DNA of 63,950 nucleotides, counting the filler, from Hausera hauseri (Eukaryota), in the NCBI GenBank assembly GCA_046269625.1. It is 12 parts of 12 records of this genome, joined end to end, with 100 filler letters (N's around TTAATTAATTAA, not from the genome) between each part and the next. Parts side by side here need not be neighbours in the genome. Positions count along the whole stretch, not along the records: positions 1 to 6,973 come from JBJURY010047442.1; positions 7,074 to 11,567 come from JBJURY010555116.1; positions 11,668 to 17,423 come from JBJURY010194303.1; positions 17,524 to 25,129 come from JBJURY010005124.1; positions 25,230 to 29,712 come from JBJURY010559340.1; positions 29,813 to 33,847 come from JBJURY010804198.1; positions 33,948 to 39,146 come from JBJURY010309498.1; positions 39,247 to 44,147 come from JBJURY010398367.1; 4 more parts are not named here. One strand, 5' to 3'. This document shows positions 1-49,527 of the stretch, piece by piece (the stretch's first letter is position 1; each line of letters begins with the position of its first letter). A program made the position numbers and the translations under genes. The notes under the pieces were generated by a model that was given only the letters and a program-made list of their open reading frames with translations, ran no database searches and was not told the origin of the DNA.

Positions 1-199
1 AGCAACGCTCTTAAATCGTATTTTCCATCATTACGAATTGTGAACTACTCTGCACATAATTTGAAGACAGTTCCAGATAATATTTTGTGTCCATATACCG
101 ACCATGGATTGAAATGTGCCTATAAAGAATGCTTGATGTTGTGTCAGCACTATTTGTCCTATAAATAAATTTAGATATTTACAAATTTACTTGACTGAT

Positions 200-3100
200 T
201 ATTTGGGTTTTAACCATGGATGAATTACTCCTCTTTTGAGTGTACTGACCTCTAATAATGCAACTGTTCTTGGTTTTCGTAACAGATCATGGTAAGGTAA
301 CTCGATATGAGCTAAGTAAGGATAACCGGATATTACTTGAGAACATTCAATGTAGGTGCTGGTGATTAGAAATCAGGCGTCACTAGCGTTTTCCAATGTG
401 ATAATAAAATCGGCATTAAATAAACTGAACATTACACGGTCGGGTTACTTGAAGATAAATATCTCATGGTCTGAGTGAAATTATTTTGATTCGTTCTTGG
501 ATTTATCTTAATCCTGCTATCAGGTAAGGGATTTTATTATGTATAGAATAGCGAAAACTACTCAACCAAAAAGTATTTGGACAAGAAGATTGTAACTGTA
601 ATGTTAGGAGTATTTGTCGATTGTCGTGTTTTGTACATGATATTGGGGGTCGTGGACTTGCGACCTCTAGAATATATACTTTCTCGCTGTAGCGTTTCGC
701 AGCGCAGGATAGGGCGTAGTAAGGTCTACTAATTTGAGGTGCAACTACTAAATTCTCGTTTTCGTAAAATATTTTTGCATTGATTCGTTGATTATCTATA
801 ATTGCGGGAATGCGTGGGATTGTCGGTGCTTTTCTTTCAATTTCTTTTACTGTACGTCTCCATATATTATTTAAGACACGGAACATAGCAAATATTAGTG
901 AATATTCCTGATCTGGTCGTGAAAAGATGCAGGTTTATTGGTTATGTTCCCGGAAATAATGAAGTTGTTATGGGTGATGGAGGTATCCGCATATCGAGTG
1001 GTTATTTGCATTAATTTGCCTTTTGGTATTTTTCTGTCCCATTCAACTGGTAAAGACTGCTTCTTGTAATTAGGTTGACCTATAAATATTCTTTCTTGTA
1101 GGAATAATCTGTCAATATTAGTTTGTTCCTCTTGTTCTGGTGAGTTAATTGTTAAGGATAGTGTAACTGTCTATTGTTCTGTGGGTATCATTATTTCAAC
1201 TGTCCGATTTTCGATAAGGGATGAATCTTTACTTTTTGATGTATGCACTTGTGCCAAATAAATATGTCCTTGGGTAACTTTACAACACCTTTCTTTATGA
1301 GTGGAAATAGAAGTACATACTATTTTGATTGCTTGTAAAGTGTTAGCGTTCCCCATTCTTCTTTCAAATATCTGGTATTTTCTGTCTTATTCTGTTGAGG
1401 GGAGGCTTTTATGAGTAGGCACTTACTGTTATGGTTACAGTGAATGAAGGGGTTTCCTGATGTAGCTTCGTGGATATCCTACGGTTCTGTTTTCGGATTT
1501 CTTTTTAGAAACTTCGTAAAATTTGAAAATGTATCAGGTAATACCTGATTAGACAGGGTTGTCATTGATTTTTCAGGGCTTTGTGTTCGTTGTGTTGAAG
1601 AGTTTGGTATATAGCAAACTAATATACTTAAATGTAGAATCATTCGGGGAGACTTTGAGCCCATTCTGATTACATTGGGACTTATGCCATTATAATTAGG
1701 AGGTTTATTTGTCAATCTAGTATTAAATCGTACTTCGTGGGTAGTGGTACGTTTCTTAGCAGGCCGCTGTCTTCTGAGATATATGATTAGTATAAGTGTT
1801 GAAATAATTATAACGGCTAAAGGGCGTATAATAATTGACAGTAATAATGNNNNNNNNNNGGGTCTTGACTTGTTGTTATATTTGGCAACCTATTTTTTGC
1901 TAAGACTTTGTTTTTGCTGGTCGTTGCATGTGGTTTCGTAAGGAAGCTGTGTTGTTCTTAGGCTGCAGTTATGTGACATAATGCTCTTGTTCTTTGTTTG
2001 GGAGATGGTTCATAATGTTGGCGTTTTATTTGTACCAAATAGAAGTAGCGAGGTCTAAGATTATCGCATTTGATGAATGTATTCGTAAGTGGAAAACAGG
2101 TGATGGTAGTATCGTCGAATGAAACGGTATAATTTTGGTCAAGGAAGTTGAATATGACATAGTTGTCACTCACGTGGAATGAAATATGCAACAGGTTGAA
2201 ATGAATTGTTCTAAGACGTTCGGGAATTTGTGTACCATCGTAAGATGCGCGTAGTGTTGCATGGAGAGTGTCAAAATTGGTAGTGCTTATCCTGTATGTA
2301 CTGGGACACGTGGATGGTAGTTGCAAGGTCAACAATATCTGTCGATCGTCACCTGGTATAGTGATCATTTACGGTGTTAGGCTGGAGTATTCTATATTAT
2401 AATCTTCTTCGTTCGTTAGTTTTGCTGTGCAGGTTATGATATAAGGGGTATTTTTTATTCGAGGTATAATTCCTGAGTCCAATGGAATTTTCTACATCTG
2501 CGCTTACTGACTGATCGTATTCGGGTGTTGGATGGCATAGAATGTCGACTGATTTATTATTGCTTTCCTTCGTTAAATTTTTCACTTTGGACTTTATTTA
2601 TATTGGCTAATGTTTGTCATTTCCACGGGTATCGTGACGAGGATAGTTCGTCTCATTATAATGTTGTAACTTAACCCACTTATAAGTTCCGATACTTGGA
2701 ATATTAAGGAATAGGTGTGGCTTTGGGAAACGTGACTACATTTGTTTTCTTTTAATTCTGAATGTGCAACACAGATGGATCTATATAATTCAAATAATGT
2801 TGCTGCTTCTTTTTCTTGCCCTACTGGTTGGTTTGTATATGCTATTTTTAAACATTTCTTCTCAGAGCTGTAGTGGATGGAGAAGATTTTAAACGTGAAT
2901 TGTTTATTATTCTTTAATTCGAATATTGTGCTCTGTGATAGTTTCGAATAACCTCGAAATATGGTGTGTGATAGTCGTTGTCTATGGGAGGTCGAAACTA
3001 GATTTTACTTCGATTGAAGTGTTGGGATTATTTGTGCCAATAAACCTGGCATATACATTGCTAATATATAATGGGGTTTACATTTTAAGAAGATTGTACC

Positions 3101-47300: not shown

Positions 47301-49527
47301 CTGTTGAATTACCCGCGAATGGTATTTCCTTATGGCAAAATAATTTTACTGAAGTAGAGGAAGAAGTTACAATGGAAATTGACGATTATCCGAGCAATTT
47401 CAACGATGTTGAAGAAGGAAAAGAGAATCTAAAAAATTTGGATTTAAGTGGATCGAACGACAAATTGGAAAACGAAAGTACTCCTTCAGTCAACAATGAT
47501 AACACTAAAAATTATCGATTAGACGAATCGTCTGTGAACGAGTCGAATCCGGCTATTTCAAATACACCACAGAATTTGGTAAGACAAAAAGAAAGACCAT
47601 CTTTGTTTACCAAAAGTTTAATTTCTGAAAATCTGTTACCGCAGTTTACTAGCGATGTAAATCTGGTCGAATGTGATAAAAAATCTATAAATAGTGAATT
47701 TTATATTAGTAAAGAAAACGTTCGTGATGAACTTTTAAGAGTTCATGGCATTGAACCCAATGATCTAGACGACCAAATGATGGTGTATGAAGCTCTAAGT
47801 CAGTTGAAAACACAGCTGGATAAACCCAATGTTTCTGCTAGTGAAGATCGTGTTCCGGAAATCGGTAATACATCGAATGTTTCAACAAAGCCTCATGCAC
47901 AACATGGTGATGAATCTGTTAAAGCACTGATTTCAGATGATAAAATTAAAAAAGAAAGTACAAAAAGTAAGATAATAGATTCTAAAAACGTAAAAAGTAC
48001 TACAGATAGAAAAAGTACCGATAAAAAATCAGTACCGGTTAAGAAAGAGAAAACTGAATCGTCTAGTCGAAAATCAAATGATACGAGAGATGATAAGAAG
48101 AAAGATAAATATGATAGTCATAATTCTAGTAGAAGAAAAGGTTCTTCTTTAAGTCAGAATGTTGATGAAAAAAGCGATACTGGTACTCGAAAAAAGGAAA
48201 GGGAAGTTGACAAAACCAAATCAGAAAAGAACCAACAAAGTCAAAAGCTGATAAATCAACAGCTACGGATGTTAAGAAGGATGTTCCAACATCGAAACAA
48301 TCAACAAAGATCATTCAAAAGAAAGTTAAATCAATCGTTACGGAAAGTAAACAACATGTTTCAATCAAAGACGAAAATGTATCATCTGAACAAAGCGTAA
48401 ACAAAGAAATATCCGAAACCAGTCAAAATAAAGATGAATTGCCAACAAGTAGTAACGTCACAAGTCAAATAAATTCAAATAAGAAAGAGTTCAATGCAAA
48501 TTCAGTAAGCAAATTCGTTCAGTCAAATGAAAATAGATCTGAATCGGAAAAAGAAAAACCGAAATCCAAATCAAATCCAGATAAAGTAGTGAATAAAGTG
48601 GCAGTGAATATAAATGAAGATAAATTACAACTACATAAAGATGGGGAAAAGGCCGATGTTGATAAAATTAGTCAAGAATCGAATGAAAATAATGGATCGA
48701 TTTTTAATCCGTCGGATAGTCAGATTTATAATAAAAAAGAGAAAAAGAGTAAAATTTGTTTTTCCGGGATTTAAAAGATCGAGTTTCCGACGGCAGATCG
48801 AATTGAATTTAATATCAAAGATATTAAATTACCAGTTGGGGATTATTGGGGAGCGGAAAAATTGGCATTTTGGACCGGAATTGCGAAAATGTCCACTACT
48901 GAAACTAAGTCAAATGGTAAAGTAAATATCGATAAGAACATTGTTGAACCTGATGAAAGTAAAGTCGAAGGAAATGAAAATAAACTTGTGAATGTTAATT
49001 CATCGTATTGTGGAAATATCGAATCAGAAAAGCCAAAAACAAGTAAAAGTGAGGAATCAAAAATCATAAGTAAGAAAGATAGTGGGAAATCGAAGATACA
49101 GAAAGACATTTCAAACACAGTAACATCAAAAGATAATAAAACAATAACTGAACATAATCCAAAAGTAGATAAATCTAAATCTGAAAGTCATTCAAATAAA
49201 TACAAGAAAAATGATAAAGATAAGTCAGAGAAATCTAAGACAACTACAGAAGAATGCAAAGCATCACCGATTAAAAAGGAAAGTATTTTATATAAATGTG
49301 CAAATGGTGATATAAAATTGGAGAATGTGGCTGGTTTATTAGAATGTTTACAACCACATTTTATTGGTGAAATATTTGAGAACTTGAACGAAAAAGTGGA
49401 TGGAAATGATATTCTGAATTGCGTGGTGTCTTATTCTACGAAGGAAAAATGTCGAATATTTGCTATAAGCTGTGAAACATTTTCTGTAATGAGTGTAAAT
49501 CAACTCTGTGACAAGAATGGTGACAGT
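44313..49527 (+). pseudogene. >1700-aa fusion frame: unknown N-terminal domain, DDX5/DDX17(Dbp2)-like DEAD-box helicase, RS domain, long low-complexity tail
   Basis: [70 protein letters not shown]; RS repeats at ~46760-47110. Lesions: frameshift ~44600, TGA 46127, frameshift ~48230, TAA 48772. Confidence 0.88.

What the first reader, a model, noticed from the sequence alone, without database searches (positions are those of the whole stretch)
1..49527. Four unlinked A-rich, intronless mega-frames may be fragments of a giant cargo-bearing retroelement or virus family
Seen: 1-6973, 25230-27290, 42000-43650 and 44313-49527 each hold a multi-kb decayed frame with an A-rich coding strand, no introns, and recognisable modules (FN3-like/TM, SF2 helicase, ubiquitin-like/AT-hook, DEAD-box/RS) embedded in unrecognisable sequence; three of them run off a contig end. 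Established precedents: giant Gypsy elements with very long accessory-domain polyproteins (planarian Burro elements) and large-genome flavi-like viruses. Inference only: the contigs are not physically linked and none of these frames shows an RT or RdRp.
Basis: inference. Interest (0 to 1): 0.72.

Follow-up and report, generated by a model that had tools for sequence, protein, structure and literature searches.

The report
Decayed envelope-bearing retrotransposon fragments, plus pseudogene
Four broken reading frames on separate short contigs share no detectable sequence: two carry a viral-type envelope gene and are likely remains of large flatworm-type retrotransposons, one is an unidentified repeat seen in thousands of variant pieces, and one is likely a dead fused copy of two host genes.

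Summary
The four decayed, A-rich, intronless frames are real, but they are not shown to be one family. They lie on four of 12 unlinked contigs and share no DNA or protein similarity. On R3's contig a same-strand frame that looks by eye like Gypsy protease/dUTPase follows. This fits the gag-env-pol Gypsy elements known from flatworms (Burro-like), but no RT, integrase or LTR was found. R1 (1-6973) is a repeat family (6521 contigs of one run lie on it) with a duplicated membrane-protein module and no known domain; it shares the synonymous A-bias of R2/R3. R4 is different: a TCF25 fragment fused in frame to a 5'-truncated, stop-bearing DDX5/17 whose RS tail is native to a flatworm paralog, with no synonymous A-bias. 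The SF2, FN3 and BCL2 calls were not confirmed; a flavi-like virus is not supported. Verdict: likely fragments of a known kind of element plus a host pseudogene; R1 stays unexplained.

The parts
1..6973 (-). R1: decayed ~2300-codon frame of a multi-variant repeat family; no known domain
   Evidence: no family passes a cut-off in Pfam, PHROGs or NCBIfam
1780..3370 (-). R1 module 1: signal-like hydrophobic stretch (~3359), beta-rich ectodomain, transmembrane helix (~1847) with basic tail; type I membrane protein by inference
   Evidence: hydropathy scan; all-beta but pLDDT 34 model; FN3-like by eye only
131..1217 (-). R1 module 2: tandem paralog of module 1's ectodomain, running towards the contig end
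   Evidence: 607 of 1032 aligned bases identical, score 278 against shuffles 163 +/- 13; protein z 19.5 and 7.8
26540..27300 (-). R2 upstream frame, helical/coiled-coil-like by eye; the claimed SF2 motifs are not supported by any profile
26399..26506 (-). R2 weak ubiquitin-like segment
   Evidence: Pfam PF00240 E 0.019, 15 bits against cut-off 25.4; PDB single ubiquitin E 0.57
25230..25651 (-). R2 N-terminal part of a gB/chuvirus-type fusion glycoprotein, in frame with the upstream ~295 codons, cut by the contig end
   Evidence: PF24664 profile 9-96 of 653, E 2.3e-7, 29.6 bits above cut-off 27
42622..43800 (-). R3 upstream frame: ubiquitin-like, AT-hook-like and BCL2-like motifs by eye, none confirmed
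42046..42613 (-). R3 C-terminal part of a gB-type fusion glycoprotein; profile positions 1-460 are absent (internal deletion, inferred)
   Evidence: PF24664 profile 461-539 E 2.7e-5 (22.8 bits) and 555-647 E 2.2e-7 (29.7 bits)
41413..42042 (+). 209-codon open frame of no known family, opposite strand, inside the gap between env and the pol-like frame
40043..40954 (+). frameshifted, intronless nicastrin fragment (host pseudogene)
   Evidence: PF05450 E 2.9e-13, PF18266 E 2.9e-5; human nicastrin E 4e-5
39247..39902 (-). 218-codon frame running off the contig end, same strand and codon bias as R3; Gypsy protease then dUTPase-like by eye (recalled pattern), no profile hit
   Evidence: z -4.8; synonymous skew 0.40; negative searches
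44558..45769 (+). R4 5' part: intronless TCF25 fragment in an open frame
   Evidence: PF04910 profile 30-154 of 337, E 3.8e-9, above cut-off
45773..46720 (+). R4 DDX5/17-like helicase from motif Ia onward; Q motif and Walker A absent; altered motifs; stop codon at 46127
46721..49527 (+). R4 RS-rich stretch and low-complexity S/K/E/N tail, with a frameshift near 48210-48400 and a stop at 48772, running off the contig end

Best explanation
The four frames are at least two different things: R2 and R3 carry a gB-type envelope gene and are likely decayed pieces of gag-env-pol Gypsy retrotransposons of the large flatworm (Burro-like) kind, R1 is a multi-variant repeat that is likely an accessory region of a similar element, and R4 is likely a dead fusion of two host genes. 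Mechanism (inferred from the known biology of Ty3/gypsy elements): a long RNA is translated into one polyprotein in which regulatory cargo (ubiquitin-like, perhaps BCL2-like) precedes an in-frame class III fusogen and then protease, dUTPase-like spacer and RT; the protein is cut up, particles fuse with other cells through the glycoprotein, the RNA is reverse-transcribed and integrated. The copies here have since decayed by stops, frameshifts, an internal deletion of most of env (R3) and an opposite-strand 2.1-kb insert of host-like DNA. R1 would supply two tandem type I membrane proteins. R4 would have arisen by joining a TCF25 piece to a 5'-truncated DDX17-like copy, most simply by reverse transcription of mRNA; it cannot be an active helicase as it stands.
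For: Shown: PF24664 above cut-off in R2 (29.6 bits) and R3 (29.7 bits, plus 22.8); in R2 the env start shares a frame with 295 upstream codons holding only 3 stops. By hand and without a control, R2's env matches the published Schmidtea errantivirus-6 env row at 15 of 37 and 12 of 37 positions. PMC13524379 reports that flatworm Ty3/gypsy elements carry only gB-type env in gag-env-pol order; PMC6431247 reports for Burro a ubiquitin/SUMO-like and BCL2 domain before an in-frame env and a dUTPase-like region after the protease. Fourfold-site A-over-T skew is 0.33, 0.32, 0.24 and 0.40 in R1, R2, R3 and the pol-like frame, not different from each other (4 of 4 tests p 0.36-0.91), but -0.01 in R4 (Fisher p 1.6e-6 to 0.012); codon-usage correlations among these four are 0.64-0.78. 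R1: 6521 contigs of run X1 lie on it, only 414 at 99% or more, all 30 of 30 bins covered; 308 contigs of run X2 likewise. R4: TCF25 and DDX5/17 hits, best identities 58-60% to flatworm proteins, RS tails native to 7 of 13 homologs counted, all 7 on the flatworm side (49-149 RS/SR pairs).
Against: No RT, RNase H, integrase, Gag or LTR was detected on any of the four contigs. The protease, dUTPase-like, BCL2-like and R3 ubiquitin-like calls are by eye; every profile, PDB and homolog search on them was blank. R2 and R3 do not align with each other and cover different parts of env, so they cannot be compared directly. gB-type glycoproteins also occur in BEL/Pao elements and chuviruses (PMC13524379). 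R1 has no retroelement domain at all; its link is compositional only, and R3's codon usage correlates as well with the R4 tail (0.73) as with R2 (0.74). The rest of R2's contig looks teleost-like by eye (L1 piece, CA-type repeats; recalled pattern, no Pfam hit). The flatworm placement of R4 is a long branch and is not enforced: AU p 0.38 for the non-flatworm side. Copy number of R2, R3 and R4 was not measured. A splice-acceptor-like run of pyrimidines plus AG sits at the TCF25/DDX junction.
Confidence: 0.6

Rival explanations
1. All four frames are parts of one giant cargo-bearing retroelement family, R4 being captured host cargo.
For: R1 and R4 are both held by run X1 (X1 may be the source sample, so this is not independent); Burro polyproteins do absorb host domains; TCF25 and DDX pieces are joined in frame; R1-R3 share codon bias.
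Against: No DNA match between any two contigs and no protein match among R1-R4 in all-against-all tests (210 segment pairs, best cross-region score is a 26-residue match); R4 lacks the synonymous A-bias; its RS tail is native to the host paralog.
Confidence: 0.1
2. The glycoproteins in R2 and R3 belong to BEL/Pao elements or are chuvirus-derived insertions, and the upstream frames are unrelated neighbours.
For: The Pfam model is a chuvirus-class glycoprotein; chuvirus-like glycoprotein insertions are reported in vertebrates including ray-finned fish (PMC11089739 passages) and in BEL/Pao elements; R2's contig looks teleost-like by eye.
Against: In R2 the glycoprotein continues a long upstream frame rather than standing alone; no L, N, RT or integrase hit upstream of either env; a pol-like frame lies downstream of R3's env, not upstream.
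Confidence: 0.15
3. R1 is not retroelement-derived but a gene block of a DNA element or endogenous DNA virus (Polinton-, Helitron- or herpes-like cargo) amplified in the host.
For: No retroelement domain; three other contigs hold Polinton-like debris; a 34-residue weak match links R1's end to the end of a Polinton-like contig (E 1e-4).
Against: That match is not above shuffles as DNA; R1 is one long single-strand frame with fourfold skew 0.33, against 0.14 in the Polinton-like frames; no relative in viral contigs.
Confidence: 0.2
4. R4 is the large exon of a real DDX17-like host gene (or an intron-poor gene with assembly errors) that happens to lie in frame with a TCF25 remnant.
For: Only 2 stops and 2 shifts in 5.2 kb; acceptor-like sequence at the junction; flatworm homologs reach 1557 residues.
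Against: Conserved helicase motifs are altered and a stop interrupts the core; no Q motif or Walker A anywhere on the contig; the frame is open for 400 codons upstream of the junction.
Confidence: 0.15
5. The frames are endogenous copies of a large-genome flavi-like RNA virus.
For: Long single-strand frame with internal signal and transmembrane stretches in R1.
Against: No RdRp or NS3-type hit; the only viral-type protein is a gB-class fusogen; R4's helicase is cellular DDX5/17.
Confidence: 0.02

Closest known systems
Burro/GYPSM1 giant Gypsy elements of Dugesiidae planarians (PMC6431247, section 7 read; the original 2018 genome paper was not held)
   Same: env in frame behind a long upstream region with a ubiquitin-like domain (R2, weak); order upstream frame, env, protease-like, dUTPase-like on R3's contig (last two by eye); decayed fragments are also reported in Dugesia japonica
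   Different: No Gag knuckles, MATH, BIR, ankyrin, RT, integrase or LTR seen; that review relates Burro env to gypsy Env and mononegavirus fusion proteins, not explicitly to gB; it lists no tandem membrane-protein module like R1 and no TCF25 or DDX cargo
GAG-ENV-POL Ty3/gypsy errantiviruses with HSV/gB-type env of Platyhelminthes, Nematoda and Bryozoa (PMC13524379)
   Same: gB-type env; env upstream of pol; R2's env resembles the Schmidtea rows of the paper's supplement by hand comparison
   Different: Those are intact, mostly multi-copy elements (9 flatworm rows, spans 12-18 kb); the pieces here are broken and lack RT; the paper's main text never names Burro, so equating the two is my inference
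Chuvirus glycoprotein insertions and BEL/Pao (Anakin-type) env
   Same: same glycoprotein family (PF24664)
   Different: in R2 the glycoprotein is the tail of a longer frame; no L, N or upstream pol
Flatworm DDX5/DDX17 paralog with RS-rich tail (Taenia, Echinococcus, Calicophoron, Clonorchis proteins)
   Same: 55-58% identity over motifs Ia-VI, RS tail
   Different: R4 lacks the first ~145-215 residues, has altered motifs and a stop, no introns, and is fused behind TCF25

Membership tests
Flatworm gag-env-pol Gypsy (Burro-like) | gB/mononegavirus-type env glycoprotein | tested here: met
   R2 and R3, PF24664 above cut-off; not in R1 or R4
Flatworm gag-env-pol Gypsy (Burro-like) | env in frame with a long upstream polyprotein | tested here: met
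   R2: 295 codons, 3 stops, same frame; in R3 the join is a deletion with a frame change
Flatworm gag-env-pol Gypsy (Burro-like) | pol (protease, dUTPase-like, RT, RNase H, integrase) downstream of env | tested here: inconclusive
   same-strand frame at 39247-39902 with matching bias, protease/dUTPase-like by eye, all searches blank; contig ends before any RT could appear
Flatworm gag-env-pol Gypsy (Burro-like) | ubiquitin/SUMO-like and BCL2-like domains before env | tested here: inconclusive
   ubiquitin E 0.019 in R2; BCL2-like by eye in R3, no hit, model pLDDT 43
Flatworm gag-env-pol Gypsy (Burro-like) | Gag with CCHC knuckles, LTRs, primer site | tested here: inconclusive
   none found, but contigs are 4.5-7 kb pieces
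Flatworm gag-env-pol Gypsy (Burro-like) | many genomic copies | tested here: inconclusive
   met for R1 as many diverged variants; not measured for R2, R3, R4
Flatworm gag-env-pol Gypsy (Burro-like) | internal region over 20 kb, polyprotein near 5000 residues | not testable with these tools
   no genome held
One family comprising all four frames | shared sequence, flanks or synonymous bias | tested here: not met
Large-genome flavi-like viruses | RdRp and NS3-type helicase in a polyprotein | tested here: not met
Chuvirus-derived insertion | stand-alone G with or without L and N | tested here: not met
   R2 env continues an upstream frame; no L or N hit
Functional DDX5/17 gene | Q motif, Walker A, DEAD motif, uninterrupted core | tested here: not met
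   profile match starts at 157, after Walker A at 134; stop at 46127

The most novel reading that the evidence does not exclude
R1-R3 are pieces of a Burro-scale, envelope-bearing Gypsy lineage outside the Dugesiidae (R2 perhaps even in fish-like DNA) whose polyprotein carries a 2300-codon accessory arm with two tandem receptor-like membrane proteins, and which captures host mRNAs such as TCF25, DDX17 and nicastrin as cargo.
Probability: 0.12. Interest if true: 0.72.

Novelty: new member of a known kind. Interest (0 to 1): 0.36.

Why it matters
Giant gag-env-pol Gypsy elements are described in detail from few planarians (one paper in the library holds both names of the founding element). More lineages would show how far an RNA-packaged element can grow, and whether the fusogen and the apoptosis- or ubiquitin-related cargo are common to them. 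R1 is the part worth following: a 7-kb repeat with thousands of variant pieces, unknown to every library searched, encoding duplicated membrane proteins. As it stands the material is broken fragments with no RT, so the gain is a lead, not a discovery.

Tried and rejected
No genome is held for the window. Homolog searches were blank for the longest R1 frame (161 candidates, none at E 0.01) and for the pol-like frame (726 candidates, none); both need shared 5-residue words, so the blanks are weak. Three viral-contig scans and two metagenome scans found no relative. PHROGs and NCBIfam gave nothing convincing for 25 of 25 segments. Two single-sequence folds were unusable (pLDDT 43 and 34), so no fold search was run. 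The sensitive HMMER search of protein representatives and the Atlas gave no result, so remote homologs of R1-R3 stay untested. Rfam: 0 hits. No LTR-like or terminal repeats on the four contigs. No RNA holder listed for R4. Summed depths are not copy numbers. TGA as tryptophan was considered for R4's stop and dropped: the same frame uses TGG three codons earlier and other motifs are decayed. One search aligned the wrong frame and is discarded. Dinucleotide distances were too noisy on 1-2 kb pieces to bin contigs; they only put the nicastrin piece nearest R4. The tree used 57 of the 120 listed homologs plus R4, that used 24; both are quick trees. Earlier findings of this scan: none in 5 look-ups. 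No paper holds TCF25, DDX5, retrocopy and chimeric together.
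Full report
Setting. The window is 12 short contigs joined by artificial linkers; no genome is held. The other contigs are ordinary transposon debris: non-LTR pieces with RNase H, a near-intact LINE with endonuclease, RT, RNase H and zinc fingers, a Tc1 transposase, Polinton-like polymerase pieces, and Gypsy gag and integrase ends by eye. CpG ratios range from 0.58 to 1.25 between contigs, so the window may mix organisms. 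I call the four regions R1 (1-6973, minus), R2 (25230-27300, minus), R3 (42046-43800, minus) and R4 (44558-49527, plus).

The observation. Each region has a coding path much cleaner than shuffles (z -5.5 to -14) and 38-41% A on the coding strand. R1, R2 and R4 reach a contig end. That much stands, though 6 of the 8 larger control regions also score z -4.7 to -9.1. Of the named modules only DEAD-box/RS and one transmembrane helix are confirmed. SF2 in R2 and FN3 in R1 got no profile or PDB support; ubiquitin-like is a sub-threshold hit in R2 (E 0.019) and only a pattern by eye in R3.

Are they one family? No DNA match exists between any two contigs, and no protein match among R1-R4. Of 210 segment pairs only R1's internal duplication stands out (z 19.5 and 7.8); the best cross-region score is a 26-residue match. 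Synonymous sites split them: A-over-T skew at fourfold sites is 0.33, 0.32 and 0.24 in R1, R2, R3 and 0.40 in the frame at 39247-39902, but -0.01 in R4. R4 is A-rich because of its lysine, glutamate and asparagine tail, not through a strand bias. A synonymous A-bias is common in reverse-transcribing elements (recalled), but it is a weak character, and R3's codon usage correlates as well with the R4 tail as with R2.

R2 and R3. Read with X at stops, both match the chuvirus-class (gB-like) fusion glycoprotein PF24664 above its cut-off: R2 holds profile positions 9-96 at the contig end, R3 holds 461-539 and 555-647. In R2 the glycoprotein follows a hydrophobic signal-like stretch and is in frame with 295 upstream codons that hold 3 stops and the weak ubiquitin-like segment. 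In R3 the first 460 positions of the glycoprotein are missing, which I read as an internal deletion. Upstream in R3 lie ubiquitin-like, AT-hook-like and BCL2-like patterns, all by eye and unconfirmed. Downstream, after a 2.1-kb opposite-strand insert holding a frameshifted nicastrin fragment and an unknown 209-codon frame, a 218-codon frame on R3's strand runs off the contig; by eye it is a degenerate Gypsy protease followed by the dUTPase-like spacer, but seven searches were blank. PMC13524379 (abstract, passages, first part of section 5, supplement rows) reports that flatworm, nematode and bryozoan Ty3/gypsy elements carry gB-type env in gag-env-pol order; by hand R2 matches its Schmidtea errantivirus-6 row at 15 of 37 and 12 of 37 positions, without a control. 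PMC6431247 (passages and section 7) gives the Burro order as Gag, Smc, MATH, ubiquitin/SUMO-like, BCL2, in-frame env, protease, dUTPase-like, RT. The fit of order is good; the proof, an RT or LTR in cis, is absent. BEL/Pao env and chuvirus insertions (PMC11089739 passages) remain rivals, above all for R2, whose contig continues into DNA that looks teleost-like by eye.

R1. In run X1, 6521 contigs lie on R1: 414 at 99% or more, 964 at 95-99, 2653 at 90-95 and 2490 below 90; all 30 of 30 bins are covered, with summed depth 59 to 16002 against 4 to 15.5 for the five identical pieces listed. Run X2 shows the same family thinly (308 contigs). Changes are mostly transitions. So R1 is one copy of a diverged repeat family, not a single-copy host gene; depth gives no copy number. 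It encodes about 1200 codons of unknown sequence, then a signal-like stretch, a beta-rich ectodomain and a transmembrane helix with a basic tail, then a second copy of the ectodomain (607 of 1032 bases identical). No library or collection names it. An accessory arm of a large Gypsy element is my best guess, on codon bias and single-strand layout alone; a DNA element is not excluded.

R4. The frame joins a TCF25 fragment (E 3.8e-9) to a DDX5/17 helicase that starts at motif Ia. Q motif and Walker A are absent from the contig, conserved motifs are altered, and a stop lies at 46127; the alignment is colinear, without introns. Best identities are to flatworm proteins (58-60%); quick trees put it beside Macrostomum and the RS-tailed flatworm paralog on a long branch, but the non-flatworm side is not rejected (AU p 0.38). 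RS tails are native to that paralog, so 'DEAD-box/RS' is one host gene, not two captured modules. With 2 stops and 2 shifts in 5.2 kb it is a young pseudogene, most simply a chimeric retrocopy; a large exon behind an acceptor-like site is possible. Its copy number was not measured, which leaves open whether it travels as cargo.

Comparison and novelty. R2 and R3 work like gag-env-pol errantiviruses; membership is likely but not shown. The one-family and flavi-like readings fail their tests. The original Burro paper was not held, so its full domain list and supplements, which I could not see, may bear on R1 and on the helicase question. PMC11410931 (passages) adds only that Burro elements exceed 30 kb and that Gypsy elements expanded in Schmidtea.

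Verdict. Observation partly confirmed, interpretation partly supported. Likely new, broken members of a known kind of element plus a host pseudogene; interest 0.36, carried mostly by the unexplained R1 family.

Noticed in passing
window 55616-59752 (-): Near-intact LINE with endonuclease, RT, RNase H and several C2H2 fingers, GC 46%; it recalls ingi/L1Tc of trypanosomatids (recalled), a hint that the window mixes organisms.
   Followed up: no
window 27300-29712: Non-coding DNA with CA-type repeats and a short L1-like piece at 29450-29712 that looks teleost-like by eye, on the same contig as R2; no Pfam hit.
   Followed up: partly
window 40043-40954 (+): Intronless, frameshifted nicastrin fragment; nearest to R4 in dinucleotide make-up. 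Two decayed intronless host-gene copies in 64 kb is a lot.
   Followed up: partly
window 41413-42042 (+): Open 209-codon frame of no known family, ending at the tail of R3's env.
   Followed up: partly
window 70-169 and 63321-63420: Weak 34-residue match (E 1e-4) between R1's end and the end of a Polinton-like contig; not above shuffles as DNA.
   Followed up: partly
window 17524-25129, 33948-39146, 59853-63950: Three contigs of Polinton-like debris (polymerase B E 9e-5, endonuclease VII E 0.001); the last two share polymerase similarity.
   Followed up: no
window 4825-4854: A (TATT)n microsatellite sits inside R1's frame at a frame change.
   Followed up: no
window 29813-33847: Tc1 transposase piece nested in what looks by eye like a hAT-type transposase.
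   Followed up: no
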